DNA of 60,972 nucleotides from a virus (taxonomy: Duplodnaviria > Caudoviricetes), in IMG/VR virus record IMGVR_UViG_3300027852_000043, positions 1 through 60,972 of that record, one strand, 5' to 3'. Shown piece after piece: positions 1 through 60,972 of this stretch; positions within the stretch are counted from its first letter, which is position 1; every line of letters starts with the position of its first letter. The notes below the pieces were generated by a model, which was not told the origin of the DNA, searched no databases, and worked only from the letters and a program-made list of their open reading frames with translations. The position numbers and the translations under genes were made by a program.

Positions 1-28
1 TGTTAATTCTTCTCTGGAAAACGGGACC
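1..28. repeat. Terminal overlap, copy 1 (circular contig junction)
   Basis: TGTTAATTCTTCTCTGGAAAACGGGACC matches 60945..60972 with one mismatch (position 9, C vs T). Confidence 0.9.
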
Positions 29-4844: not shown

Positions 4845-5069
4845 CTATTGAGACGTCCAGATCGAAGCATTACTAACCTTAATCCTGGGCGTTTGGGCCT
4901 GGGCGACTCGCGTCTCCAGGGCTGTGACCTGCTCCTGGACAGCGGTTATTGTCAGTTGGGTGTCTTCCCCTTGGCTGATCAGCAGACCAGCACAGACGGC
5001 TAACAGGCCTGCGAGGACGATTGATAAAAATTGACGCGTGGTCATTGTCATACCTGTTCGTTTTGGCAC
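4845..5069 (-). CDS. Small membrane/secreted protein
   Basis: N-terminal hydrophobic helix followed by a short coiled coil. Confidence 0.5.
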   Translation of the reverse strand: MPKRTGMTMTTRQFLSIVLAGLLAVCAGLLISQGEDTQLTITAVQEQVTALETRVAQAQTPRIKVSNASIWTSQ

Positions 5070-5233
5070 GTCTCGTCAAGATAGAGCCCTACTGTAGTGC
5101 AATTGAGCTTAGTTACACCTTCCGCACCACCATAGACAAAGGAAAAAGCCTGCTCTTTATTATGGGCGATGATTTCAAATTCAGATTCCTGATTATACTC
5201 TGCTAACTTAGCTATGACCTCACTTACTTTCAT
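5048..5233 (-). CDS. Hypothetical protein
   Basis: AAAGGAG RBS; MKVSEVIAKL start. Confidence 0.6.
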   Translation of the reverse strand: MKVSEVIAKLAEYNQESEFEIIAHNKEQAFSFVYGGAEGVTKLNCTTVGLYLDETCQNEQV

Positions 5234-5248
5234 CTTTATGCTCCTTTC

Positions 5249-5545
5249 TCATGAATCTTTTTCCGGGTAACACTCCCAACAATAAGGGCCTTCTTCATCT
5301 TTTGTGTAATTACTGTCTTCGCCTCTGCCGGCATTCCCGGTTAGTTCGCCACACTCGCAACAATACTCAAGAGTGCAACCATGGTAACGGGCGTTTACTT
5401 GGTCATGTTCGCTTTGGAATAAAGGTCTTACCCGCCCTAATTCTCTTTCTTCTTTTATTTCGTCTATCCAATCCATAGCCCAGCCCTCATAATGTGCCTC
5501 TCCCAGACACGTTCTCAGTCGTTCAACATGACTTTTGCTCGACAC
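5249..5545 (-). CDS. Hypothetical zinc-finger protein
   Basis: YCCECG...YCWEC. Confidence 0.6.
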   Translation of the reverse strand: MSSKSHVERLRTCLGEAHYEGWAMDWIDEIKEERELGRVRPLFQSEHDQVNARYHGCTLEYCCECGELTGNAGRGEDSNYTKDEEGPYCWECYPEKDS

Positions 5546-5699
5546 TGTCCCTGCAAATCCAGGCCGCCATCAACGCCGCCTGTGACTTGGCATGCCGGGG
5601 ACAGATACCGGCAGATATTATCCCAATGCCCTCAGCTAAACACCAGGGGCAGGGTTTCGAGTTTTGCTCTTCGTTCATGAATCATACTTCCTTTGAGAA

Positions 5700-5882
5700 T
5701 CAAGGGGAAACCACCCCGTATTTCAAGACAAATCCAATTGAAATCAAAGTGATTGCCCCGATAATTACTGCGGGCGCCTCTTTTGTTTTGTGGTTGTTTA
5801 AAACATCCACAGCTTTCATCATAATCCCAGCCCCTAAACAAAAAGATCCCATCATTAAAATCACCGTAGCATTTAAATCCAT
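5700..5882 (-). CDS. Small two-TM membrane protein
   Basis: GGAGGTGA RBS; two hydrophobic segments. Confidence 0.55.
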   Translation of the reverse strand: MDLNATVILMMGSFCLGAGIMMKAVDVLNNHKTKEAPAVIIGAITLISIGFVLKYGVVSP

Positions 5883-6034
5883 AGGTCACTCCTCCTTCAG
5901 CGCCCGGACTACCAGCGCCCGAACATAGGTTGCAGGTTTGTCCAAACCTTCCTTCTCCATCGCCCGCCTGAGTTTGATTTCAAGCCAGCCGGGGATCGTT
6001 ATCGTCATTTTTACGCTTGTCGTCCCTTTCATGC

Positions 6035-6313
6035 TTATCCCTCCCCTTCATCCCCGAACCCCAGATCCGGGCACTCTGTATTGTTTTCTGTTTGGAGCCT
6101 CGCCTGGACCCGGTCAACCACCAGCTGCCAGGTGGTATCCGTGATATGCTTGGCAATAGGGTCACCCAGCCAGATTTTACATTCGGTTACAACACGTCTC
6201 TTGGGTTTATTCTCACTTTTTTGGGGGAAATGAAACCGGATAAAACTTGGGACAAATACCATGTCCTCCGGTATAATCAACAGCAACCGTTCTTCAGCTT
6301 CTTTCATGTTCAT
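6035..6313 (-). CDS. Hypothetical protein
   Basis: AAGGAGG RBS. Confidence 0.6.
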   Translation of the reverse strand: MNMKEAEERLLLIIPEDMVFVPSFIRFHFPQKSENKPKRRVVTECKIWLGDPIAKHITDTTWQLVVDRVQARLQTENNTECPDLGFGDEGEG

Positions 6314-6340
6314 TTTAGTCCCTCCTTTGTGCTATCTATA

Positions 6341-6742
6341 TTATTTGCCGCCAATATATATGGCAGCAGACTTCAAATTATCAAAAACCTGACCGCCATT
6401 CCGGGTGACCATTTTCGCCACAGCACCAAGAGATTTCCATTGCCCTGTTGTAAATCGCATTTCACCATCATCCCGCAACAACACAAAGATGGTTTTTTCA
6501 GGTCTTTTGTTACTATCGTCAACGACTTCGGCTATCGAATAAACCCCTGTCATTTTTGGCGTAATAGTGTAAAGAACAAAATCGCAGGTCTCCCGCTCTT
6601 GAATTTCTTGCGCCATACAAGCTTCTGTCCAATCTGGGACAACTGGGTTGAAATATTCAATACCTTCACCAAATAAGTATATCATCATCCTGTTACGCCA
6701 GGTACTTTCGTTACAAGTGCCGCCGAGAAATACTCGTTTCAT
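6341..6742 (-). CDS. Nucleoside 2-deoxyribosyltransferase-like protein
   Basis: VFLGGTCNESTWR, YFNPVVPDW, CDFVLYTITPKMTGVYSIAE. Confidence 0.85.
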   Translation of the reverse strand: MKRVFLGGTCNESTWRNRMMIYLFGEGIEYFNPVVPDWTEACMAQEIQERETCDFVLYTITPKMTGVYSIAEVVDDSNKRPEKTIFVLLRDDGEMRFTTGQWKSLGAVAKMVTRNGGQVFDNLKSAAIYIGGK

Positions 6743-6762
6743 TTTAATCCCTCCTTTCGCGG

Positions 6763-6975
6763 TTATACGTCCATCATCCGAACAAGATAGCCCAGCCTGT
6801 GCCTGTATTTTTGCCCAACCAAGGCAGACCCCATCCATTTCAACATTTTCTTGTCATCATGCCTGCAATCCCCGCTCATCCAACCTCTAAGCTTGGACAA
6901 ATCGTCAGTTGTTTGGATGCCTTCTGTCATTCCCATCCCGCTTTTTGTAATTCCAAAATAATTAAAATTTTTCAT
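6763..6975 (-). CDS. Hypothetical protein
   Basis: AGGAG RBS. Confidence 0.55.
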   Translation of the reverse strand: MKNFNYFGITKSGMGMTEGIQTTDDLSKLRGWMSGDCRHDDKKMLKWMGSALVGQKYRHRLGYLVRMMDV

Positions 6976-6978
6976 CAG

Positions 6979-7272
6979 CTATGCTCCTGTTTTATATTCC
7001 GCCCCACAATCCGGGCAGACTACCCACCATTGACCATCTTTGTCCATGTATGCGTTACAATTCCTGAACTCGCCCGGCCCTGCGAAAATAAAACCGCATT
7101 TACATTCCACCTTGATTTCTCCTGTATTTCTTGGCTTGCCCTGCGGGTACGGACATTGCTTTCCTTTTATGAGATATGCTTGATGAACAGGTGCAACCCG
7201 CGTACCTATTGTCTTCAGGGTGTTTTTGGTGGTATTCGCACGTGTGATGTTCAACCACCGTTTCCCATTCAT
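6979..7272 (-). CDS. Zinc-ribbon protein (true start probably internal)
   Basis: ECKCG...CPDCG. Confidence 0.45.
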   Translation of the reverse strand: MNGKRWLNITRANTTKNTLKTIGTRVAPVHQAYLIKGKQCPYPQGKPRNTGEIKVECKCGFIFAGPGEFRNCNAYMDKDGQWWVVCPDCGAEYKTGA

Positions 7273-7287
7273 CTGGATAATATATTA

Positions 7288-7557
7288 TCAACATTTCGAC
7301 CTCCGAACGCAAGAATCTAACAACTGGTTATCAACCCCATTCTCTACAGTTTTCATAGCATTTTCCCGGGTTGGCTCCGTCCCTAAATAGAAGCCCGGCC
7401 CCGTCCAAATCGCAGAGCTACAACTGTATGCCCAATCTCCAGTGTCAAGCCGGTGAACCTTTGCGAAAATCTTAAATATCTTTTCGCCATCGTTTTCGCA
7501 TAAAGCCATACACCTGGTTGGACTATTTTTTATGTATTGCCAATTTATTGCGGCCAT
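7288..7557 (-). CDS. Hypothetical protein
   Basis: ORF in minus-strand operon. Confidence 0.55.
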   Translation of the reverse strand: MAAINWQYIKNSPTRCMALCENDGEKIFKIFAKVHRLDTGDWAYSCSSAIWTGPGFYLGTEPTRENAMKTVENGVDNQLLDSCVRRSKC

Positions 7558-7560
7558 ATT

Positions 7561-7597
7561 TTAACCTTTGCCGTCAGGGTCGAGCGGCTGGTTCGCA
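7561..7597 (-). mobile_element. Truncated attC site (left arm only)
   Basis: 30 bp (7564..7593) identical to 8303..8332 of the intact attC. Confidence 0.7.
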
Positions 7598-7827
7598 CCA
7601 CGTCCTGAGAATTTCTTACCGCGCGCAACGACTTGCCCAGACGGATCGACATAAACTTTGCCTGCCTTACATAGTTGGCCGTTGACAGTTATGGTTCTCG
7701 GGCCACTGACATGCACTCCATGGGCGGTCAAGAAGGCATCAATGGCAGTAGCTATTTCACATCCGGTCATAATAATATCTACTCCTGGTCCATATTTGGT
7801 TGTACCCTTGCCGTGTTTTATTTTCAT
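7561..7827 (-). CDS. Hypothetical phage protein reading into an attC half-site
   Basis: YGPGVDI..TG.EIATAIDAFL..H.V..SGPRTI.VNG; ends ANQPLDPDGKG, a translated attC left arm. Confidence 0.7.
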   Translation of the reverse strand: MKIKHGKGTTKYGPGVDIIMTGCEIATAIDAFLTAHGVHVSGPRTITVNGQLCKAGKVYVDPSGQVVARGKKFSGRGANQPLDPDGKG

Positions 7828-8024
7828 GACATACCCCCTTTTATTCCCCCTTTTTTGCGGTTTTTTGGTATAGCTTGTTCAAGTTTTTTAATGTCTTCTA
7901 TGAGACCAGCAAATGATAATCTTAGCAAGTCATCGTATTCAAGCCCTTGCAGACCAAGAGCTGACTTTGCGACTATCCCAGAGAGCAATGCAATTTCAAT
8001 CTGTTTTCTCGGCTCTATCTTCAT
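7824..8024 (-). CDS. Hypothetical protein
   Basis: AAGGAG RBS. Confidence 0.55.
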   Translation of the reverse strand: MKIEPRKQIEIALLSGIVAKSALGLQGLEYDDLLRLSFAGLIEDIKKLEQAIPKNRKKGGIKGGMS

Positions 8025-8036
8025 CTTTCATCTCCT

Positions 8037-8077
8037 TCGGCCCGGCTTTTTGAGTCCGCTGCACTGGCTGACTATGT
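8037..8077 (-). mobile_element. Degenerate/truncated attC site
   Basis: ACATAGT-CAGCC-AGTGCAGC-GGACTCAAAAAGCCGGGCC; closely resembles 13426..13483. Confidence 0.55.
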
Positions 8078-8260
8078 TTTTTGTTGTTTCAATGATATGA
8101 TTTCATATGGCCAGCATTCTTTTACATGGTTTTGAACATGAGCTGTAGCCGAAAGAAAGTCAGGATAATCTTTTACGGCAAAATGTAAATCGGAATCTGC
8201 ATAATCTTTATATTGGATCTCAGCAACCCATGCCAAGTCCGATAATTGTACGCCACGCAT
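8072..8260 (-). CDS. Cassette-borne hypothetical protein
   Basis: Lies between attC 8277..8336 and the remnant at 8037..8077; AAGGAG RBS. Confidence 0.6.
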   Translation of the reverse strand: MRGVQLSDLAWVAEIQYKDYADSDLHFAVKDYPDFLSATAHVQNHVKECWPYEIISLKQQKT

Positions 8261-8276
8261 TTTTTATCTCCTTAAA

Positions 8277-8336
8277 AGATAACGTTTAGCTAACCTGCGG
8301 CGACCTTTGCCGTCAGGGTCGAGCGGCTGGTTATAA
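8277..8336 (-). mobile_element. Intact integron-type attC site (60 bp)
   Basis: R'' TTATAAC, spacer CAGCC, L'' GCTCGACC, central stem, L' GGTTAGC, spacer TAAAC, R' GTTATCT. Confidence 0.85.
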
Positions 8337-8462
8337 ATCAACATCTTCCCTTTTGATATAAATAGGGATAATTCCCAATAAAAACCACCCATGATAAATA
8401 TACCTTTTTACTGGTCCGAATGTCCCATGCTTAATTTTCTTCCATGTTTTATAGGTAATCAT
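8331..8462 (-). CDS. 43-aa cassette ORF (not in the ORF track)
   Basis: GAGGT RBS; MITYKTWKKIKHGTFGPVKRYIYHGWFLLGIIPIYIKREDVDL; stop TAA lies inside attC R''. Confidence 0.65.
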   Translation of the reverse strand: MITYKTWKKIKHGTFGPVKRYIYHGWFLLGIIPIYIKREDVDL

Positions 8463-8521
8463 CTTGATACCTCAATGTTTTCATCAACCATGCTCCTCTT
8501 TTTTATATGGTTGGTTACACA

Positions 8522-8704
8522 TTAATCCCAAGCCCATCCAGCAGTTCTGCAATTTGGGCAATATAATGTTTCGTGATCAGCTTCACATAGTAACTCATGG
8601 CCCTCACCAACATGGCCACACCAATCACAGGTAAAAGATGGAAGTTCGCCTTCCCAGTCCGGGTTCTCTTCTTTAAGTGATATTGCGCTTTTGCCAGCAC
8701 TCAC
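8522..8704 (-). CDS. Zinc-ribbon protein
   Basis: AAGGAGG RBS with GTG start; CDWCG...CPNC. Confidence 0.6.
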   Translation of the reverse strand: MSAGKSAISLKEENPDWEGELPSFTCDWCGHVGEGHELLCEADHETLYCPNCRTAGWAWD

Positions 8705-8855
8705 AGCCTACCTCCTTTGGTTATGCGCCCCCAGGAACCGCCACACGGAACGTCCTGGGTAGTATTGATCCGGCAGTGTATATTTCCGGGCTTGGCTTTG
8801 TCCGTGCCGTCCAGATCCCGTGCATTCCCAAGTTCATGTGTCTGACGCATAACCG

Positions 8856-9116
8856 TTAAAGTTTTGCTGTTGCGATAACTGATTTACATTTTGTGCAAAT
8901 GGAACAACCAGACACAACCTCATTGTCAGCAGAAACCCAATCATGTTCACAATCAGCAGCACCTTCTTCGTCCGCTGTATTGCCGAGTTGGGCGTCACCT
9001 TCCCGAAGTGCGATATCATCAAGCAATTCTAACGCTGCGCTTATCGCAATTTTTCGTTGATCCGCTGAGTAACTTTGTGGATTCCCCAAAATTTCCATGA
9101 TGAATTTAGTGTTCAT
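8856..9116 (-). CDS. Hypothetical protein containing an internal decayed attC
   Basis: GGGGAG RBS; CEH...CTKC C-terminus follows the attC-like segment 8940..8993. Confidence 0.6.
   Translation of the reverse strand: MNTKFIMEILGNPQSYSADQRKIAISAALELLDDIALREGDAQLGNTADEEGAADCEHDWVSADNEVVSGCSICTKCKSVIATAKL
8940..8993 (-). mobile_element. Degenerate attC embedded in a CDS
   Basis: R'' GCCCAAC, L'' AATACAGC, L' GCTGATT; R' GTT core lost. Confidence 0.55.
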
Positions 9117-9137
9117 GTTTTCTCCCCTTAAAATGTC

Positions 9138-9365
9138 TCAATTATGCTCCTCATCGTGGCAGTCAATACATCTCATTTCTAAATTTTCCATAGTATCCTC
9201 GCCGCCTTGCGACTTGTGGGGGTCATGGTGAGCCGGAGTGCCGGGCTCTACCCACGCTCCACACTTTTGACATATCCCACCGTCCCTCACGTAAACCGCC
9301 TCATGCAGCTCTTCGAGGGCTTTCCCCTTTAATCTGTGGGGCTTGTGTTTCGGCACTGGGTTCAT
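9138..9365 (-). CDS. HNH endonuclease
   Basis: RDGGICQKCG...HH...SQGG...NLEMRCIDCHDEEH. Confidence 0.85.
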   Translation of the reverse strand: MNPVPKHKPHRLKGKALEELHEAVYVRDGGICQKCGAWVEPGTPAHHDPHKSQGGEDTMENLEMRCIDCHDEEHN

Positions 9366-9799
9366 TCCGGCGCCTCTGCCTTTTCAGGAGGCGGGATCTC
9401 CACAGAATGCTCCATCAACGCCCACCTGCATATCCGCTTGACGTAGCTATCTTCGGCACTGAAAAACTCAACCGTTGATAACTTTGTGGTTGACCCTCCT
9501 ACCGTCTTTCCCGGATCAATTTTGCTTTGAACCGGGTTGAACTCCCTCTTCAGGTCTTCGTGCATGTCGTCAGGGTTATCATGTCCGAAGTACTCTGCGA
9601 GAATCGGGATGACAACGCCAAAATAGTAGGCGTTCTGGTCGTTTGTCCTCTTTGTCTTGTGCCTGCGGATAGTGATATCAACATGCGCTCCATTAGGGAA
9701 AGTCGATACCCATCGAGACATCGATCTTTTAACGTGACCAAGGAGCTTCAACTTTTTGCCCACGATATCAGCTTCAAAGATGGGGATAGGTTGCTTCAT
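9362..9799 (-). CDS. NinB/YbcN-like recombination accessory protein
   Basis: RTNDQNAYYFGVV...MHEDLK...STTKLSTVEF; sits in the recombination operon. Confidence 0.65.
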   Translation of the reverse strand: MKQPIPIFEADIVGKKLKLLGHVKRSMSRWVSTFPNGAHVDITIRRHKTKRTNDQNAYYFGVVIPILAEYFGHDNPDDMHEDLKREFNPVQSKIDPGKTVGGSTTKLSTVEFFSAEDSYVKRICRWALMEHSVEIPPPEKAEAPE

Positions 9800-10014
9800 G
9801 CTGATTCCTTCCGGCATTGCTCTAAAAACTCGGCAGATATTTTCTTGTCTGCGATTTTAATCATTTTTAATTCATATACTATTTCGCATTTGGGGCAAAA
9901 TAACACCGTATCAAGTAACCCGTTACTGACTTCCTTGAGGTAATTATGGCACTTCCGGCAGGGCGTTTGGGTGATGTAAGGCTCTGCTGTTATATTTATT
10001 TTGCCGCACTTCAT
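9796..10014 (-). CDS. Zinc-ribbon protein
   Basis: CRKC...CPKC. Confidence 0.55.
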   Translation of the reverse strand: MKCGKINITAEPYITQTPCRKCHNYLKEVSNGLLDTVLFCPKCEIVYELKMIKIADKKISAEFLEQCRKESA

Positions 10015-10670
10015 GTTAACCTCTCCAACATCTCATCAAGTTCCCGTAAAAACTCCATGACTTCCGTTTCAATCAATCTTATCATATCCTCATCACGGTA
10101 CAAGCGGTTTACTTTTAAAGGCTTAATCCCTCGAAACTTTTTGGGGATAGTTACGCCTTCATTAGTGTCGTCAAATTCCGGGCAATAGACAATATAATCA
10201 ATCCAGGTCCTACCGGAAACGGACAGAAAATCTTGGCATTGGTAAATGTGGTATGTGTTTATCGTTTTTGTGTATAAAAATTCAAGGAATACTTTCCCCT
10301 TCATTTTCTTGATTTCAATGCCACCGTCTTCCCCGACCAGGCCGTCAGGCGAAACATGCACCCTGGGTAGAGCGGATTTTATCATGGCTATCTGCTCCAC
10401 ATCAACATCTCGCTCCCACTCATACAATGCCCGAGCCTTTGGTTCAAACTCGTGGCCGCTGTCCATGTCTTTGCTGTGGTATGTTTCGTCTCGCTTTCCT
10501 GTGATAATCTCTTTTGCTAATGTATACATCAGGTCTTTCCGCATTTTACTTGGCTTGCCACTCTTACCCTTCGCAAGCACGGCAGGGATGCTTGACCCTC
10601 CGATGGAGCCTAAGCGTAAATCAAACCACTCCTTGCTATTCTGTTCTATCCCTCGGATGATTTCAGGCAT
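10011..10670 (-). CDS. YqaJ / lambda-exonuclease family protein
   Basis: EQNSKEWFDLRLGSIGGS, G..FEPKAR..Y, SPDGLVGEDGGIEIK, YQCQ. Confidence 0.9.
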   Translation of the reverse strand: MPEIIRGIEQNSKEWFDLRLGSIGGSSIPAVLAKGKSGKPSKMRKDLMYTLAKEIITGKRDETYHSKDMDSGHEFEPKARALYEWERDVDVEQIAMIKSALPRVHVSPDGLVGEDGGIEIKKMKGKVFLEFLYTKTINTYHIYQCQDFLSVSGRTWIDYIVYCPEFDDTNEGVTIPKKFRGIKPLKVNRLYRDEDMIRLIETEVMEFLRELDEMLERLT

Positions 10671-10671
10671 T

Positions 10672-11436
10672 TTAGCGTTTCCCTTCCAGTACCTTGACTG
10701 CATTCTCGTATTGTTTCACCGGTAGTTCTGAGAGTGTTTCAATCCCGAACCGCTTTAGGAACTTGGGTCCGTCCGCGCCAACTTCTGTGCGGAGGGCGTC
10801 AAGGTTGGCGCTTTGTTCGTCTGTGATGTATTCAACCGGGTCCGAACCCCTTCCATCATCATCTTGCCCTTTGGCTGCGAGCCCGGTTAGAGATAGGAGC
10901 GTGTACCTTTGGAGGTAGGTTATTGTTGATCCTATGGCCTGTATTGCATTTTTGCTGCCGGAGGTATCGGCTTTTGCTGAGAGGCTGGTTGATTCCGAAT
11001 GACCCTGTTCATGGGTAATGACGCAGGTAACAATAACATCTCCGTTTTGCGCTGTTTTCCATGCTACAGAAAGGCCGTGTTGGCTCAACGCTGCTCCAAT
11101 AACTGATGTAACTGCTCCCAGGGTAGCATGGCTATATTCTGTAGTGCCACCTCCGGCCTGATAGCTAACGCTGGCATCTTTCAATATCTCCGGGGGGTTC
11201 TCCTTGAATGCCGCCATAGCCCTCGTGTACGCTTTCCGGGCTTCATTGGCCTCCCATCTCTCCTGAAGATCCATGAGTTTTTCCAGCTTCGCAAGATCAG
11301 CTCCCTGGTTTACGGCAACTGCCAACAGGTCGGCAGGTGTTGTTCCCGCCACAACCTCGCAGGGCTCAGGAACTACCACTCTTGTTTCTGGCGCCCTATC
11401 CTCAAAATGTCCAATCTTTTCGCCTATATTTTCCAT
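10672..11436 (-). CDS. ERF family single-strand annealing protein
   Basis: YSHATL, L..HGL, H..GHSE, GSKNAIQAIGSTITYLQRYTL, DDDG. Confidence 0.92.
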   Translation of the reverse strand: MENIGEKIGHFEDRAPETRVVVPEPCEVVAGTTPADLLAVAVNQGADLAKLEKLMDLQERWEANEARKAYTRAMAAFKENPPEILKDASVSYQAGGGTTEYSHATLGAVTSVIGAALSQHGLSVAWKTAQNGDVIVTCVITHEQGHSESTSLSAKADTSGSKNAIQAIGSTITYLQRYTLLSLTGLAAKGQDDDGRGSDPVEYITDEQSANLDALRTEVGADGPKFLKRFGIETLSELPVKQYENAVKVLEGKR

Positions 11437-12497
11437 TATAGTGCCTCCAGATCTGTAGTTGCTTTGTCGATTTGTCCCCAGACGACATCGGCAAAAATGT
11501 TGCATACAAACTGCACTTTTCTATCCTTGAGTTTAACAGGGCGTTCCGTCAAAAGCTTGTGGACCATCCCAAGAAATGCCAACACCTGTTCTTTCTCAGG
11601 TCGTAATGCCTCCTGTCGGGCCGCCTCCACTTTCGCTGCTTCCTCTTTCTCAACCCGTTCCTTTTCCTCACGCTCCACTTTGGCCGCTGCTTCTTTCTCA
11701 GCATCAATCTTGGCCTGTTTTTCAAAGGCCTCCTTCTCAATCCGCGCCTGCTCTTTGTGCTTTTCAGCTTCAATCGCTGCACGTTCGTCATCAATCTTCC
11801 GTTGAGCGGCTTCCTGATCTTCCTTGATCTTCCGGTTAGCTTCGTCAATCTTCCTTTGATCTTCGGCCAGGCGGTTCTTTTCGGCTTCCAGTACAGCCCT
11901 TTCCTTCGCAATCCTTTCCGATTCGGCTTTCCGGTCGGCCTCTTCTTTGGCGATCCGTTCAGCTTCAAGTCGCTTTTCCTCTGCTATCCGGGCCTGTTCT
12001 GCCTCGTAATCGGATTTGACCTTTGCAAAGAGACCGTGATATTCATCGGTTCCCATTGCAGCTATATCAAAATAAGGAAGGATAGTGTCGTATTTAGCGA
12101 GGTCTGCCATTCGGGCCTCGACCTTCTCCCTTTCCTTCCGCTCCTCCTCTTCCTTCCGCTTCGCTTCTTCCGCTTCCCATTCATCAAGCGGCTTTCTCAC
12201 TCCGGCCTTGAGGTCATCACAAAAATCCCGCGCTGCTTTCCTGACAGCATCGACCTTCCCGGATTTAGCCTTCCAGTCGGCAACCATTTCTTTACCAATG
12301 TTATCTAACAGCGTCTTCGACCGGGTTATTTTGTACGCAAAAGACACGACCTCCTTCCGGCTCTCTTCCGTTGAGACATCTGGTGTAAACGCTTTCACTT
12401 TAGTCTCGATCTCAATTAATATTTTCTTCATACCTCCCTCGGTATAAAGCGCAACAGGGTCAAGTTTCTCCGCAACGATCAAACTTTTTTCAGTCAT
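11436..12497 (-). CDS. Conserved phage coiled-coil protein of recombination operons
   Basis: PDVST..SRKEV.S.AYK..RSKT.LD..GK followed by a long E/K/A/R coiled coil. Confidence 0.8.
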   Translation of the reverse strand: MTEKSLIVAEKLDPVALYTEGGMKKILIEIETKVKAFTPDVSTEESRKEVVSFAYKITRSKTLLDNIGKEMVADWKAKSGKVDAVRKAARDFCDDLKAGVRKPLDEWEAEEAKRKEEEERKEREKVEARMADLAKYDTILPYFDIAAMGTDEYHGLFAKVKSDYEAEQARIAEEKRLEAERIAKEEADRKAESERIAKERAVLEAEKNRLAEDQRKIDEANRKIKEDQEAAQRKIDDERAAIEAEKHKEQARIEKEAFEKQAKIDAEKEAAAKVEREEKERVEKEEAAKVEAARQEALRPEKEQVLAFLGMVHKLLTERPVKLKDRKVQFVCNIFADVVWGQIDKATTDLEAL

Positions 12498-12616
12498 AAT
12501 TACCCTCCAAAAAATAGATCCATGATTACCCAAACAAGACAGACAACTAAAACTACCACCGACACCGGCCCCAACCAGATCCAATTATCATTAATTATCT
12601 GTAGTATGGTTTCCAT

Positions 12617-12859
12617 TCACACCTCAACTCCTTCCAGCATTGCCCCGTTGTATTTGTGTGTTACTTTACCGTCTATCCACACAGCAAACCACATCGCTTC
12701 CATCATTTGACCGCCTTCCATTACAACTGTAATTTTTTCTACACCTCCTTCCCCTACGGAAACACGCCCTTCATTCGGCCAAAATATACACCGAACCTCT
12801 TGGCCGTTTTTAAATTTTTGGTCTGTCTTACTGGGCCGCCACCGTGGGCAGTGCCGCAT
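12617..12859 (-). CDS. Hypothetical protein
   Basis: ORF downstream of the leftward promoter; start uncertain. Confidence 0.5.
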   Translation of the reverse strand: MRHCPRWRPSKTDQKFKNGQEVRCIFWPNEGRVSVGEGGVEKITVVMEGGQMMEAMWFAVWIDGKVTHKYNGAMLEGVEV

Positions 12860-12900
12860 TGGTTTGCGTGTGGGTTAGGGTTTGAAATCCATTTGTCTGC

Positions 12901-12929
12901 ATTATAAAAAACGAAAATCAATAAGTCAA
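12901..12929 (-). promoter_or_regulatory. Near-consensus sigma70 leftward (early) promoter
   Basis: TTGACT-17 bp-TATAAT. Confidence 0.85.
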
Positions 12930-12986
12930 GTCTTTTTTACAGGTACAGGTACTTTTTTCTGAATTATTTTTTCCTGTAAAAATCGC

Positions 12987-13015
12987 TTGACATAAAGAAT
13001 CTAAGATGTTATGGA
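12987..13015 (+). promoter_or_regulatory. Sigma70 rightward promoter
   Basis: TTGACA-17 bp-TATGGA; ATG at 13023. Confidence 0.5.
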
Positions 13016-13022
13016 TGTAACC

Positions 13023-13259
13023 ATGAAAAATATAGTAGAAAATTTGGTTAAAAATTACCTCAAAAAATACGAAATGAAACAGACCGAATTTGCCATGCGG
13101 GTGGGTATATCCAAACAATTGCTCAATTGGCACCTCAAGCACCCGGAAGCCAAATGGAATCCCCAGGTGGCGCTCGGTATAGAGACGGCCACAAACTGCG
13201 AGATCCTGGCTTATGATTTGGTATTTAGGGACCGCAGACACGAAAAGCCGCGCCGGTGA
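13023..13259 (+). CDS. Cro-like HTH regulator
   Basis: MKQTEFAMRVGISKQLLNWHL...ALGIETAT...DL; first gene of the rightward operon. Confidence 0.8.
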   Translation: MKNIVENLVKNYLKKYEMKQTEFAMRVGISKQLLNWHLKHPEAKWNPQVALGIETATNCEILAYDLVFRDRRHEKPRR

Positions 13260-13274
13260 TTAAGGACGTTATAT
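13238..13274 (+). mobile_element. attC right arm only
   Basis: GAAAAGCCGCGCC-GGTGATT-AAGGAC-GTTATAT. Confidence 0.55.
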
Positions 13275-13288
13275 TCCAGGAGGTAAAA

Positions 13289-13483
13289 ATGGGAAAATGC
13301 ACAAATTGCAAAGGAACAGGGAAACAGGTTTTTCATGGGCACTTTGAGTCTGTAATGGGAACCTGTAATTTCTGCAAAGGATCTGGGAAAAGAGAAGATC
13401 AGTTAAAGTGGCTTGACAAGCTGAAATATAATAAGCCAGCGCAGCGGACTCAAGAAGCCGAGCCGGTGATTAAAGTGTCATAA
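13289..13483 (+). CDS. Cassette-borne protein with a DnaJ-type Cys repeat
   Basis: CTNCKGTG...CNFCKGSG; AGGAGG RBS; C-terminus reads through attC. Confidence 0.7.
   Translation: MGKCTNCKGTGKQVFHGHFESVMGTCNFCKGSGKREDQLKWLDKLKYNKPAQRTQEAEPVIKVS
13426..13483 (+). mobile_element. Degenerate full-length attC (58 bp)
   Basis: R'' ATATAAT, L'' AGCGCAGC, GG(A)CTC/GAGCC stem, L' GGTGATT, R' GTCATAA; both cores carry one substitution. Confidence 0.65.
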
Positions 13484-13499
13484 GGAAAGGAGAATTACA

Positions 13500-13727
13500 A
13501 TGAAGCAACCGAGGGAGCCAGGCATATATCAATTTACGTGTACGAAAAAATTCAGCTTTCCGATATCTTTAGACGAATGGGTCGTCGGGGTCGTTTTTAA
13601 AGAGGACGGTAAGTGGCGCTATTACGGCGTTGCAGGTTGCGCAAAATATGCCCATGGGTTTTCGTGGCCGCTGGCACCATTCGTGGGGCATGGGGAATTT
13701 AAGAGGTTAACCAGCAAAACAACATGA
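13500..13727 (+). CDS. Cassette-borne hypothetical protein
   Basis: AAGGAG RBS; lies between two attC-like sites. Confidence 0.65.
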   Translation: MKQPREPGIYQFTCTKKFSFPISLDEWVVGVVFKEDGKWRYYGVAGCAKYAHGFSWPLAPFVGHGEFKRLTSKTT

Positions 13728-13764
13728 CCCAAAAAAGCCGGGCAGGTGAACTATATCGTTATAC
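13705..13764 (+). mobile_element. attC site (60 bp) with an eroded L'' box
   Basis: R'' GGTTAAC, TG(A)CCC/GGGCA stem, AAAAAAGCC loop, L' GGTGAAC, R' GTTATAC. Confidence 0.65.
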
Positions 13765-13776
13765 AGGGGAAATAAA

Positions 13777-15939: not shown

Positions 15940-15950
15940 AAGTGTATATT

Positions 15951-16697
15951 ATGGGTGCTACAGGATACATTAAAGCCTGGAGAAAAGTCTTAGAATCTTC
16001 CACATACCATGCGCTTACTGCTTCTCAGCGAGACGTTTTTTGGGCGTGCCTGTTATTGGCAAACCGTAGTCCTACCGACTGGGAGTGGGAGGGCCAAGTT
16101 TTCAATTGCAATCCGGGTCAATTCATTACCTCATTGGATTCGCTTAAAAAAATATGTGCGAAAGATACGTCAACGCAAAATATCAGGACAGCACTAAAAA
16201 AATTAGAAAAGTGGCAATTTCTAACAAACGAATCAACAAAGACAGGAAGATTAATAACCATAGTCAATTGGGGTAGTTACCAGTACCTTGAAGAAGAGAC
16301 CAACAAAGCAAATGACAAAGAGCTAACAAAGAGCCAACAAAGAGCTAACAAAGAGCTAACACCTAACAAGAAGATTAAGAAGATTAAGAAGATTAAGAAG
16401 GCAGAAAAGAACCCCCGCGCGCGAGAGAACGTTTGGGTCAAGTTATCACCTCCAACCCTTGAAGAGGTCAAAGCCTATTTCAAAGAAAAGGGTTACTCTG
16501 AAGAAGTCGCCGAAAAAGCATTTGAATATTACGATGAAGGTGACTGGATAGATGGGCAAGGTAACAAGGTTTATCGTTGGAAGCAAAAGATGATCGCTGT
16601 CTGGTTTAAAGAAGAAAATAAAGCTACGGAAGAAACCCCAAAGTTCAAGTTTTTCCTCCAGGATGATGAGAAAGACGCAAACGGTAATTGGATTTAA
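15951..16697 (+). CDS. Phage replication initiator (wHTH, O-like)
   Basis: GYIKAWRK, LLLAN, PGQFITS..SL, IRTALKKLE, ITIVNW..YQ; C-terminal PPTLEEVKAY...YY..GDW. Confidence 0.85.
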   Translation: MGATGYIKAWRKVLESSTYHALTASQRDVFWACLLLANRSPTDWEWEGQVFNCNPGQFITSLDSLKKICAKDTSTQNIRTALKKLEKWQFLTNESTKTGRLITIVNWGSYQYLEEETNKANDKELTKSQQRANKELTPNKKIKKIKKIKKAEKNPRARENVWVKLSPPTLEEVKAYFKEKGYSEEVAEKAFEYYDEGDWIDGQGNKVYRWKQKMIAVWFKEENKATEETPKFKFFLQDDEKDANGNWI

Positions 16698-59100: not shown

Positions 59101-59157
59101 TACTCCCTATTTTACTGAATTCCATATATTTGCTTCCAACCATACCGGTCTCCTTTT
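59101..59157. repeat. 57-bp perfect direct repeat (second copy 59975..60031)
   Basis: Contains the RBS and first 14 codons of the 59784..60017 gene. Confidence 0.9.
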
Positions 59158-59207
59158 CTGTTACTGTTTGCTCAACATTCGATCGGCGATAACCCTGGGG
59201 AGCACCA

Positions 59208-59259
59208 CCATAACACTCATTGCCACTGTTCATTAGGCAATGAAATCAACTGGTTAGCG
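59208..59259 (-). mobile_element. Degenerate attC directly abutting the upstream attC
   Basis: R'' CGCTAAC-CAGTT; 8-bp stem TCATTGCC/GGCAATGA; right arm irregular. Confidence 0.4.
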
Positions 59260-59319
59260 GTATAACGTTAAGCTGACTTACCACGGCTTCTTGTGGGTAA
59301 GTCCAGCGGCTGGTTAGGA
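59260..59319 (-). mobile_element. Intact attC site (60 bp)
   Basis: R'' TCCTAAC, CAGCC, L'' GCTGGACT, TACC(C)AC/GTGGTA, L' AGTCAGC, TTAAC, R' GTTATAC. Confidence 0.85.
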
Positions 59320-59459
59320 GTAATACCGTGTGTTACGTGTGCCGCGGGCCAATGTCCGCAGTCTTCACATACTCGTTTACCCTTCAACGCTGGTTTACGT
59401 TTTCCATCTTGAATTATTGGTTTAAAAATAATTTTTCCCCCGCACTTTTCACATTTCAT
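59268..59459 (-). CDS. Cassette-borne zinc-ribbon protein
   Basis: CEKCG...CEDCG; reads into attC (PNQPLDL). Confidence 0.6.
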   Translation of the reverse strand: MKCEKCGGKIIFKPIIQDGKRKPALKGKRVCEDCGHWPAAHVTHGITPNQPLDLPTRSRGKSA

Positions 59460-59469
59460 TACTTTAATC

Positions 59470-59525
59470 TCTTAACGCTAAGATCAGCCGCCGGGTCTTC
59501 GGTCGGCTGCATTTGTTGGTTATAA
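59470..59525 (-). mobile_element. Intact attC site (56 bp)
   Basis: R'' TTATAAC, CAACA, L'' AATGCAGC, CG(A)CC/GGCG, L' GCTGATC, TTAGC, R' GTTAAGA. Confidence 0.85.
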
Positions 59526-59726
59526 GATTTCTAATATCACCGCATCACCAACATACGAATGACCGGTATCCCGGTAAAACCACCATTTGTCAAAACCCTC
59601 AACCGCAACAGATACATCGTCCGCGTCTATGATTTCATATTCGTAGAATCCAGATGGCAACATCACATTGCCAGATTTGTTGTGGACCTTGACCCTGTCA
59701 CCTTTTTTTAAAGTTCCGAGTTCCAT
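59520..59726 (-). CDS. Cassette-borne small beta-barrel-like protein
   Basis: AAGGAG RBS right after R'; LKKGDRVKV; stop TAA inside R''. Confidence 0.7.
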   Translation of the reverse strand: MELGTLKKGDRVKVHNKSGNVMLPSGFYEYEIIDADDVSVAVEGFDKWWFYRDTGHSYVGDAVILEIL

Positions 59727-59739
59727 TTAGAATTGCTCC

Positions 59740-59797
59740 TTATAACAGGTTGATCACCAGTGCGGCCCTTGGCATCTGGTGGATTAACTGGTTGTGC
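59740..59797 (-). mobile_element. Intact attC site (58 bp)
   Basis: R'' GCACAAC, CAGTT, L'' AATCCACC, AG(A)TGC/GCACT, L' GGTGATC, AACCT, R' GTTATAA. Confidence 0.85.
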
Positions 59798-60017
59798 GCC
59801 TCTGAGCCATTAGTTCGAAAATCATTTTTTTGATATCATCCATGCAATCGGTGTTAAATACGCAATTGGCGGAAGGGAAAAAACAGTATTGTCGCCATGC
59901 CCCATACCATTTAATTGTACCTAAAATAAATCCCGATGACTTAGAAAGAATGTCCCAAATATCTGTTTTCCCCGTACTCCCTATTTTACTGAATTCCATA
60001 TATTTGCTTCCAACCAT
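59784..60017 (-). CDS. Conserved phage protein ending in attC
   Basis: KT..W.I......LG.IKWYGAWRQYCFFP....VFN..CM.DI. Confidence 0.75.
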   Translation of the reverse strand: MVGSKYMEFSKIGSTGKTDIWDILSKSSGFILGTIKWYGAWRQYCFFPSANCVFNTDCMDDIKKMIFELMAQRRTTS

Positions 60018-60029
60018 ACCGGTCTCCTT

Positions 60030-60230
60030 TTATGGCCGTGGTTGCTTAAAAACCCACCAATCTTGAATAAATGGCTCTTGGCCTACCCAATGTTTTTGGG
60101 TATACCCAACGAATTCCCACCCCTGCTTATCCATTAAATTGAGCCAGGATTCCATGTCTCTATTATCCATCACAGGTGACTTTGCGTTTTGTGGTAAGTC
60201 CGGTTGCGTACATTTGTATTTATATCTCAT
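60030..60230 (-). CDS. Hypothetical protein (DUF4177-like)
   Basis: Y.YK...LN.M.KQGWEFV...VFK.P. Confidence 0.6.
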   Translation of the reverse strand: MRYKYKCTQPDLPQNAKSPVMDNRDMESWLNLMDKQGWEFVGYTQKHWVGQEPFIQDWWVFKQPRP

Positions 60231-60944: not shown

Positions 60945-60972
60945 TGTTAATTTTTCTCTGGAAAACGGGACC
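60945..60972. repeat. Terminal overlap, copy 2
   Basis: 27/28 identical to 1..28. Confidence 0.9.

What the first reader, a model, noticed from the sequence alone, without database searches (positions are those of the whole stretch)
7561..8993. Second cassette cluster showing a gradient of attC decay
One intact attC (8277-8336) ends an unannotated 43-aa ORF whose TAA lies in R''. A left-arm-only copy (7561-7597) shares 30 identical bp with it. A truncated site follows the next gene (8037-8077), and a core-less attC lies inside a CDS (8940-8993). TAAC-CA stubs also occur at gene ends (near 8513 and 7325). All are oriented with transcription. Inference: cassettes were captured and then fixed by deleting attC arms, turning mobile cassettes into ordinary phage genes. 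Many tiny early ORFs of such phages may be domesticated cassettes.
Basis: partly seen in the sequence, partly recalled or inferred. Interest (0 to 1): 0.75.

Follow-up and report, generated by a model that had tools for sequence, protein, structure and literature searches.

The report
Integron-type cassette sites in a phage
An uncultured marine phage keeps some of its tiny early genes next to the folded recombination sites that bacterial integrons use, one site whole and others broken, which is a known but rare arrangement and hints at how phages pick up and then fix accessory genes.

Summary
The core observation holds. Window 8277-8336 (minus strand) is an integron-type attC site. A covariance model built only from attC sites of control records (class 1 cassettes in a P1 isolate; phages TJE1, H101/PH101 and M16-3, named by Qi et al. 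2023) scores it 46.0 bits, E 7e-8. It finds three more at 59.2-59.8 kb. The converse model, built only from the phage elements, finds the attC sites 3' of aadA, cmlA and dfr cassettes.

The 30-bp 'left-arm' copy (7564-7593) is exact. The 'truncated' site (8038-8079) is a real repeat, but no model matches it.

Not supported:
- the 'core-less attC' at 8940-8993;
- the TAAC stubs, which are not above chance.

Against an active system:
- no integrase of any tyrosine type in this record, rated complete;
- the sites fold about half as stably as the two control attC sites tested;
- a co-occurring variant lacks the whole block 7550-9137, with a junction that is not at an attC.

Best reading: an integrase-less cassette cluster with decayed relics, in the early operons of a marine phage. 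The same site family occurs in about 20 other uncultured viral contigs.

Phage attC clusters are published, and this scan has noted them before on other DNA. This is a new member of a known kind.

The parts
8277..8336 (-). Intact integron-type attC site (A2). Layout: R'' 8336-8330, 5-nt spacer, L'' with one unpaired base, variable tip, L', 5-nt spacer, R' 8283-8277. The predicted crossover lies between 8283 and 8282.
   Evidence: R3 (control-attC model) 46.0 bits, E 7e-8. R2 72 bits (this site was in R2's training set). Structure. Bottom-strand DNA fold -11.1 kcal/mol, z -1.94.
7564..7593 (-). A1: exact 30-nt copy of the 5' arm of A2 (AAC of R'' through the tip). The 3' arm is missing. It is read as the C-terminal tail NQPLDPDGKG plus the stop of the 88-aa ORF.
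   Evidence: D10 (100% over 30 nt). Homologues of the 88-aa protein in 8 viral contigs share the core up to about residue 75-80 and then have unrelated tails.
8038..8079 (-). B1: truncated relic of a second site subtype. It keeps the 5' flank and a small hairpin with an A-rich loop ending in GCC. Its 3' arm is replaced by the ribosome-binding site of the 66-aa ORF.
   Evidence: 86% over 42 nt with 13424-13465 (I1). Alignments. No model match at E<=10.
8331..8462 (-). 43-aa ORF that ends inside R'' of A2 (candidate cassette gene).
   Evidence: No Pfam or PHROG family.
8072..8260 (-). 62-aa ORF between A2 and B1 (candidate cassette gene with its own ribosome-binding site 8-10 nt after R').
7824..8024 (-). 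66-aa ORF downstream of B1.
7561..7827 (-). 88-aa ORF. It has a conserved core and an appended tail encoded by A1.
   Evidence: The L004 homologue has a weak inverted attC-like hit at its 3' end (16.4 bits).
7550..9137 (-). Six-gene block that holds A1, B1 and A2. It is absent from a co-occurring variant, in which the HNH gene's stop overlaps the start of the 89-aa gene's homologue.
   Evidence: joint 7549->9138, skips 1588, 4 letters between, one contig at depth 15.8, 84 letters on the shorter side.
59740..59797 (-). attC site 3' of the 77-aa ORF 59784-60017.
   Evidence: R3 23.8 bits, E 0.0065. R2 27.4 bits, E 2e-4, and not in R2's training set.
59470..59525 (-). attC site 3' of the 68-aa ORF 59520-59726, with the stop inside R''.
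   Evidence: R3 40.4 bits, E 1.3e-6.
59260..59319 (-). attC site that overlaps the 3' end of the 63-aa ORF 59268-59459. Its flanks are near-identical to those of A2, and its tip hairpin carries the same loop as B2.
   Evidence: R3 24.3 bits, E 0.005. Alignments.
13705..13764 (+). B4: decayed full-length site. R'' and R' cores and the 55-nt TAAC-to-GTTAT length are kept, but the L box no longer pairs.
   Evidence: Only R1 and R2 match it, and it was in their training sets. R3 does not match at E<=10. Folds have z +0.1 to +0.9.
13424..13483 (+). B2: decayed site with changed core triplets (AAT for AAC, GTC for GTT).
   Evidence: R2 17.1 bits, E 0.11. R3 13.7 bits, E 1.2. Sequence read.
13234..13274 (+). 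B3: right arm only, with R' kept, at the 3' end of the cro-like gene.
   Evidence: D11 (83% with 13444-13473)..

Best explanation
The region is a piece of an integron-type gene-cassette system that lacks its integrase. It sits in the leftward early operon of a 61-kb uncultured marine phage.

The site at 8277-8336 is an attC-type imperfect palindrome. Its layout is a terminal AAC/GTT inverted core, 5-nt unpaired spacers, and an inner stem with unpaired bases on the 5' arm only.

In integrons such a site folds as single-stranded DNA. An integron integrase cuts it in the GTT core, so the gene in front of it can be excised and re-inserted as a promoterless cassette. Here that gene would be transcribed from the phage early promoter.

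The phage has no such enzyme, so any recombination would need a host integrase (inferred).

The neighbouring copies (7564-7593, 8038-8079, and 13234-13483 in the opposite operon) have lost one arm or a core triplet. They can no longer be substrates, so the genes beside them are fixed (inferred).

Shown: family membership by structure, by models and by covariation; the partial copies; the absence of an integrase. Inferred: how the cassettes arrived, that decay followed capture, and that any site is still active.
For: 1. Converse test. Model R2 was built from 4 window and 6 G001 elements only. In MH445380 it finds five sites lying directly 3' of the annotated aadA, cmlA, aadA, a small ORF and dfr cassette genes, E 8.9e-7 to 0.0038.
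2. R2 also finds three sites after orf1-3 of phage TJE1, three in phage H101/PH101 and two in M16-3. Qi et al. 2023 report attC clusters in these phages, and IntI1 recombined 5 of 6 tested phage sites (PMC9892861, sections read).
3. Reciprocal test. R3 was built from those 13 control sites only. It finds 4 window sites at E 7e-8 to 0.0065, all on the sense strand.
4. Negative control. In 14 unrelated loci the best E is 0.8.
5. Covariation over 10 phage copies: 92.2% of cells paired against 75.9% shuffled; 9 of 17 pairs have changes on both sides; score 0.441 against 0.147, reached by 0 of 500 shuffles.
6. All 24 viral-contig and window hits have a 5-nt 5' spacer and a 5-6-nt 3' spacer.
7. The 30 of 30 identity of A1 to the 5' arm of A2.
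8. A related phage, L060, has two hits in the same early slot with other genes around them.
Against: 1. No integron integrase (TIGR02249) and no tyrosine recombinase (PF00589, E<=0.1) in a record that CheckV rates 100% complete.
2. With DNA parameters the window sites fold at -9.5 to -11.4 kcal/mol (z -1.4 to -3.5). The aadA and TJE1 attC sites fold at -18.3 to -20.7 (z -3.9 to -8.6), so the window sites may be poor substrates.
3. In A2 one L-box pair is G-T on the top strand, which is a C-A mismatch on the bottom strand. Across 24 viral-contig and window sites, top-strand wobbles outnumber bottom-strand ones 10 to 4; in the 13 control sites the count is 3 to 7. The numbers are small and no test was run.
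4. The variant that lacks 7550-9137 has a junction that is not at a GTT core.
5. R3's training sites were picked and aligned by R2, so the two tests are not fully independent.
6. Model E-values are rough because of the short calibration.
7. IntegronFinder and HattCI were not available.
Confidence: 0.75

Rival explanations
1. Passive capture. The sites are dead fragments of a host chromosomal integron array, picked up by illegitimate or homologous recombination. No integrase ever used them in the phage. The partial copies are ordinary mosaic junctions.
For: No integrase in the phage. Weak folding. The only polymorphism seen is a block exchange with diverged flanks of 84 and 166 nt, typical of homologous exchange. 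The phage encodes RecT-like and YqaJ-like recombination genes (ORFs 10672-11505 and 10011-10703; the names come from reading the sequences, with no family search). Qi et al. also raise illegitimate recombination as a route.
Against: The sites sit in three separate places, in both divergent operons, and are always in sense orientation. The same site family is found in about 20 otherwise unrelated viral contigs of 37-64% GC. That is hard to obtain from single chunk captures.
Confidence: 0.2
2. A gene-end element at the RNA or DNA level with another job, such as a weak terminator, a transcript-stabilising hairpin or a protein-binding hairpin, which only resembles attC.
For: The RNA folds show the same architecture, with z down to -4.14. 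Top-strand wobble pairs outnumber bottom-strand ones. The small B hairpin has a conserved A-rich loop and stems that change on both sides. Qi et al. mention that attC sites may act as weak terminators.
Against: A model trained only on control attC sites finds the elements at E 7e-8, and the converse also holds. No terminator-like site lies on the sense strand at any element, and terminator counts are not above shuffles. The conserved AAC/GTT cores and 5-nt spacers have no known RNA role.
Confidence: 0.1
3. A phage-specific cassette system that uses the same kind of folded site but another recombinase, not the host integron integrase.
For: 0 of 18 further viral records with this site family has an integron integrase above the family cut-off. 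3 of 18 have some tyrosine recombinase, and one lies about 4 kb from a row of five to six sites in G003. Earlier notes of this scan describe Xer-like recombinases beside such arrays (not tested here).
Against: Neither the window (rated complete) nor G001 (rated 52% complete) has any PF00589 match. No recombinase co-occurs consistently.
Confidence: 0.08
4. Chance: unrelated hairpins and short motifs.
For: The first folds were no better than shuffles. The stubs are at chance level.
Against: A 30 of 30 repeat, model E-values, covariation, and the same element in other contigs.
Confidence: 0.02

Closest known systems
Clusters of attC sites lacking an integron integrase (CALIN) in phage genomes. 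Qi, Rajabal, Ghaly, Tetu and Gillings 2023, Front Microbiol, PMC9892861. Read here: abstract, introduction, sections 2.1 and 3.4, Table 2 and figure legends. Supplements not seen.
   Same: attC-type sites 3' of small co-oriented ORFs in a phage with no integrase. My phage-derived model finds sites in three of their named phages (TJE1, H101/PH101, M16-3), and the model built from those sites finds the window's sites.
   Different: This is an uncultured marine phage. Its sites are scattered in three small clusters in both early operons, mixed with one-armed and point-mutated relics. They fold about half as stably as the TJE1 site. No recombination assay exists for them.
Class 1 integron attC sites (aadA, cmlA and dfr cassettes in MH445380)
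   Same: The same layout holds position by position: AAC/GTT cores, 5-nt and 5-6-nt spacers, and unpaired bases on the 5' arm only (alignments).
   Different: There is no intI, attI or Pc next to them. The R' boxes mostly read GTTAT rather than the published GTTRRRY. The cassettes are only about 210-270 bp long.
Cassette insertion outside integrons at attG sites. bioRxiv 10.1101/2022.09.11.507474, seen only as a search listing and the start of the abstract.
   Same: It would explain lone attC sites inside ordinary operons without an attI.
   Different: Not tested here. No insertion-site motif was examined.
Promoter/stem-loop cassettes of T4-type phages (PeSL) and module-boundary 'linker' sequences of lambdoid phages. 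Recalled; no paper was fetched.
   Same: Short repeats at the borders of small early genes that could mediate shuffling.
   Different: As I recall them, those act by homologous recombination and lack the AAC/GTT cores, the spacers and the one-sided unpaired bases.

Membership tests
Integron attC site | Inverted core triplets AAC (in R'') and GTT (in R') at the two ends. The published R' consensus is G|TTRRRY. The R'' consensus RYYYAAC is recalled. | tested here: met
   A2 has TTATAAC ... GTTATCT. The three sites at 59.2-59.8 kb and B4 all keep AAC and GTT. The full 7-mers match the consensus only partly, because R' is mostly GTTAT. B2 has AAT and GTC, so it does not meet the feature.
Integron attC site | Fixed spacing: about 5 unpaired nt between R'' and L'', and 5-6 nt between L' and R'. 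| tested here: met
   24 of 24 aligned viral-contig and window hits have a 5-nt 5' spacer and a 5-6-nt 3' spacer (the alignment is fitted to the model). The control attC sites align in the same columns.
Integron attC site | An L box that pairs, with extra unpaired base(s) on the L'' arm only; these set the polarity. | tested here: met
   The consensus structure has bulges only on the 5' arm. 9 of 17 pairs change on both sides and 92.2% of cells are paired. B4 fails this feature.
Integron attC site | Recognised by a structure-plus-sequence model trained on accepted attC sites. | tested here: met
   R3, built from 13 control sites, gives 46.0, 40.4, 24.3 and 23.8 bits in the window. The best E in 14 unrelated loci is 0.8. 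The curated IntegronFinder and HattCI models were not available.
Integron attC site | Stable folded bottom strand. | tested here: inconclusive
   The A2 bottom strand folds at -11.1 kcal/mol, z -1.94. The two control sites fold at -18.3 to -20.7, z -3.9 to -8.6.
Integron attC site | Cut and recombined by an integron integrase at G|TT. | not testable with these tools
   This needs an attC x attI assay. The one polymorphism seen, 7549->9138, is not at a GTT core.
Complete integron | An intI gene with attI and Pc next to the array. | tested here: not met
   No TIGR02249 and no PF00589 match in the 60,972-bp record, which is rated 100% complete.
CALIN (cluster of attC sites without an integrase). 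The IntegronFinder rule of two or more sites within 4 kb is recalled. Qi et al. required at least two sites, each within 3 kb of another. | Two or more attC sites close together and no integrase. | tested here: met
   Met at 59260-59797, with three R3 hits in 540 bp. In the finding's own span only one site passes, plus relics.
Intrinsic terminator | A G+C-rich hairpin followed by a T run on the sense strand. | tested here: not met
   No terminator-like site lies on the sense strand at any element, and the counts are not above shuffles.

The most novel reading that the evidence does not exclude
Environmental phages may use host integron integrases as a general exchange platform for their small early accessory genes. 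One attC family is shared by this phage and about 20 otherwise unrelated uncultured viral contigs (37-64% GC), none with an integron integrase. Cassettes would move between phages and bacterial integrons during infection. Loss of one attC arm would then lock useful cassettes into the phage as ordinary genes. On this view, part of the 'ORFan' early-gene pool of phages descends from integron cassettes. A bolder corollary: a phage without its own integrase could enter a host integron as one giant cassette.
Probability: 0.2. Interest if true: 0.75.

Novelty: new member of a known kind. Interest (0 to 1): 0.45.

Why it matters
Phage-borne attC clusters were reported in 17 of 10,705 sequenced phages (PMC9892861). 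Here the same kind of site turns up in an uncultured marine phage, and by simple pattern searches in about 20 more viral contigs. Such sites may therefore be commoner in environmental phages than isolate genomes suggest.

The series of whole, one-armed and point-mutated sites beside tiny early genes gives a concrete set of sequences for asking whether phage accessory genes start as integron cassettes and are later fixed.

The sites are weakly folding and no integrase is present, so activity is open. Without an assay this remains an annotation-level result.

Tried and rejected
1. First-pass rejection of attC, later reversed. DNA folds of the five claimed sites were no better than shuffles (z -0.49 to -1.70 for the intact site). 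I then read the 30-bp repeat as a recombination scar. I dropped this after finding full-length copies with identical flanks, one of them in an unrelated contig.
2. nut-site-like (boxA/boxB) reading of the small A-rich-loop hairpin behind the cro-like gene. This was a recalled resemblance only, and the model results superseded it.
3. Near-identical DNA elsewhere. The 22-mer core of the 30-bp repeat gave 0 hits in viral contigs. It gave 1 metagenome and 2 genome contigs, all chance matches in high-GC coding DNA with no flank similarity. The B-hairpin 19-mer gave 0 hits.
4. blastn of the 69-nt site found no match in GenBank phages or PLSDB plasmids. Megablast of 6500-10500 found none in phages.
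5. Families for the small ORFs: none in Pfam or PHROGs apart from the HNH gene and weak cro-like and Zn-ribbon hints. The 68-aa cassette ORF has only 3 metagenomic relatives.
6. Host or integron of origin: not found.
7. Expression: no RNA holder was listed for the stretch.
8. Strand of folding from wobble pairs: too few cases.
9. The supplements of PMC9892861 (exact attC coordinates) could not be seen. That my hits equal their sites therefore rests on position relative to annotated genes and on their counts for TJE1 (3 sites, 4 ORFs).
Full report
WHAT THE WINDOW IS. The window is a whole IMG/VR virus record of 60,972 bp, rated 100% complete by CheckV. Genes from about 12.6 kb leftwards, continuing across the record's ends into 58.8-60.9 kb, lie on the minus strand. 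Genes from 13.0 kb rightwards lie on the plus strand. The finding lies in the leftward early operon among small ORFs with no family. These sit downstream of RecT-like, exonuclease and HNH genes.

FIRST PASS, AND WHY I REVERSED IT. All genes here are on the minus strand. The '30 identical bp' turned out to be a perfect direct repeat, 7564-7593 and 8303-8332 (D10). In the first copy it encodes the last ten residues of the 88-aa ORF. Eight homologues of that protein in other viral contigs share the core and then have unrelated tails.

Single-strand DNA folds of the claimed sites were no better than shuffles. No integron integrase or other tyrosine recombinase is present. At that point I read the repeats as recombination scars.

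A descriptor scan for the small hairpin then turned up a further copy at 59.3 kb. Reading it showed the same 5' and 3' flanks as the 8277-8336 element and the same length, with a different central hairpin. A gapped pattern made from the flanks found an element about 85% identical to 8277-8336 (by eye from the alignment) in an unrelated contig of 37% GC, L017/G001.

THE FAMILY. Three full-length window copies (8272-8340 minus, 59255-59323 minus, 13701-13769 plus) each measure 55 nt from TAAC to GTTAT (hand count). A fourth (59465-59529 minus) measures 51 nt. Six more copies lie in G001. All share one architecture:
- an outer stem of 4-7 bp formed by the AAC and GTT ends;
- five unpaired bases on the 5' side and five or six on the 3' side;
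- an inner stem with unpaired bases on the 5' arm only;
- a variable tip.

Over the ten copies, 92.2% of pair cells are standard pairs, against 75.9% after shuffling. Nine of 17 pairs show changes on both sides. The covariation score is 0.441 against 0.147, reached by 0 of 500 shuffles, and sliding the partners by one to three columns destroys the signal. The alignment is fitted to the model, which favours the structure somewhat.

MEMBERSHIP TEST WITH CONTROLS. A literature search found Qi et al. 2023 (PMC9892861). They report 17 integrase-less attC clusters among 10,705 phage genomes, and IntI1 recombined five of six tested phage sites. I fetched five records they name.

Model R2 was built only from the ten phage elements. 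It matched 4 of the 5 records:
- In MH445380, five matches (E 8.9e-7 to 0.0038) lie directly 3' of the annotated aadA, cmlA, aadA, a small ORF and dfr genes, on the right strand and beside an annotated integron integrase.
- In TJE1, three matches follow orf1, orf2 and orf3. [quoted passage not shown]
- H101/PH101 gave three matches and M16-3 two.
- P12002L gave none.

I then built R3 from those 13 control sites alone and scanned the window without filters. Four sites passed E<0.01: 8272-8340 (46.0 bits, E 7e-8), 59465-59529 (40.4 bits, 1.3e-6), 59255-59323 (24.3 bits, 0.005) and 59735-59801 (23.8 bits, 0.0065). All are on the sense strand of their operon.

In 14 unrelated loci the best E was 0.8, while the G001 loci gave five hits at E<=0.014.

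Two caveats apply. R2 picked and aligned R3's training sites. The calibration is short, so E-values are rough.

THE OTHER CLAIMED REMNANTS.
- A1 (7564-7593) is an exact copy of the 5' arm and lacks everything from the tip onwards.
- B1 (8038-8079) is 86% identical over 42 nt to B2 at 13424-13465. It stops where the next gene's ribosome-binding site begins. Neither model matches it.
- B2 is borderline (E 0.11 and 1.2) and has both core triplets changed.
- B3 keeps only the right arm.
- B4 keeps the ends and the length but not the L-box pairing, and R3 does not see it.
- B2 and B3 are read in different frames and B1 is intergenic. The similarity is therefore at the nucleotide level, not the protein level.
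- Nothing supports 8940-8993.
- The stubs are at chance level.

WHAT SPEAKS AGAINST AN ACTIVE SYSTEM.
- Under identical DNA parameters, the aadA and TJE1 sites fold at -18.3 to -20.7 kcal/mol (z -3.9 to -8.6). The window's best sites fold at -9.5 to -11.4 (z -1.4 to -3.5).
- Top-strand wobble pairs outnumber bottom-strand ones in the viral-contig and window sites (10 to 4). In the control sites the count is 3 to 7. The numbers are too small to test.
- In the likely source run, one contig at equal depth joins 7549 to 9138 with four letters between. Read on the minus strand, the HNH stop then overlaps the start of the 89-aa gene's homologue, which begins MEINW rather than MAAINW. This is a clean absence of the whole six-gene block. 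Its diverged flanks suggest homologous exchange rather than a cut at a GTT core.
- Two other joints end near relics: 6055->7324 at the stub, and 12879->13237 at the start of B3. These come from single contigs laid at 85% likeness and are only suggestive.

COMPARATIVE EVIDENCE.
- Two further patterns found 19 more stretches in 18 further IMG/VR contigs (plus a second stretch of G001) spanning 37-64% GC.
- R3 finds 24 sites at E<=0.05 in 14 of those 19 loci. One locus holds a row of five sites, six by R2.
- 0 of 18 records has an integron integrase above the family cut-off.
- Most of these contigs share nothing with the window by tblastx. L060 and L059 are the exception. They come from a relative with the same early-operon order, and it carries two sites in the slot that corresponds to the window's 4.5-9.6 kb, with other genes around them.
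- Of the eight loci with homologues of the 88-aa gene, one (L004) has a weak attC-like hit exactly at the gene end, but in inverted orientation. It scores 16.4 bits, with E 0.8 in the wide search and 0.0012 in a 251-nt search.

HOW IT MOST LIKELY WORKS. The whole sites are integron-type cassette recombination sites. A host integron integrase would have to act on them, since the phage has none. Cassette genes are promoterless, carry their own ribosome-binding sites, and are read from the phage early promoters. That would explain why every site points with transcription in both operons. Copies that lost R' or a core triplet cannot be cut, so their genes stay.

Shown here: membership by structure and model, the relics, and the lack of an integrase. 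Inferred: the route of entry, the order of events and present activity.

KNOWN OR NEW. Phage attC clusters without an integrase are published (PMC9892861). Earlier notes of this scan describe many on other DNA; I did not test those. This is a new member of that kind. What it adds is the mix of whole and one-armed sites beside early genes, a site subtype shared across many uncultured viral contigs, and a co-occurring strain without the block. My searches of the paper library found no report of attC sites in uncultured viral contigs or of one-armed relics in phages. These were three keyword searches, not a full review.

Noticed in passing
window 59101-59175 and 59975-60049: A 75-nt direct repeat (91%). 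It duplicates the ribosome-binding site and the first 14 codons of the 77-aa cassette ORF, downstream of the last attC of the 59-kb cluster. This looks like a partial cassette duplication.
   Followed up: partly
It is not attC-like. Qi et al. note methyltransferases in phage cassettes.
   Followed up: no
window 1-28 and 60945-60972: The two ends of the record repeat each other (28 nt, one mismatch). This suggests a circular or terminally redundant genome, although IMG/VR lists it as linear.
   Followed up: no
window 5000-13300: In the likely source run, eight joints and many loose ends show co-occurring variants that differ by whole genes across the early region. Examples are 6055->7324, 9365->12495 and 12879->13237.
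   Followed up: partly
window 13715 (loose end in run X1): Where a variant contig leaves the window sequence just before the stop of ORF 13500-13727, its next 30 letters match the B1 hairpin region at 25 of 30 positions. Two stem pairs are changed on both sides (compared by eye).
   Followed up: partly
L046 4023-6113 (IMGVR_UViG_3300033145_001841): A row of five (R3) to six (R2) co-oriented attC hits within 2.1 kb of a 64-kb viral contig. A generic tyrosine recombinase lies about 4 kb away.
   Followed up: partly
L004 6227-6288: A weak attC-like hairpin at the 3' end of a homologue of the 88-aa gene, inverted relative to the gene.
   Followed up: yes
window 16315-16369: Four tandem 11-nt units (ACAAAGAGCTA-like) inside or next to ORF 15942-16697. 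They resemble iterons (D2).
   Followed up: no
window 12184-12205 (minus): One more small hairpin with the A-rich loop ending in GCC, 5 of 6 pairs, inside the long leftward ORF 11436-12584. Neither attC model matches it.
   Followed up: no
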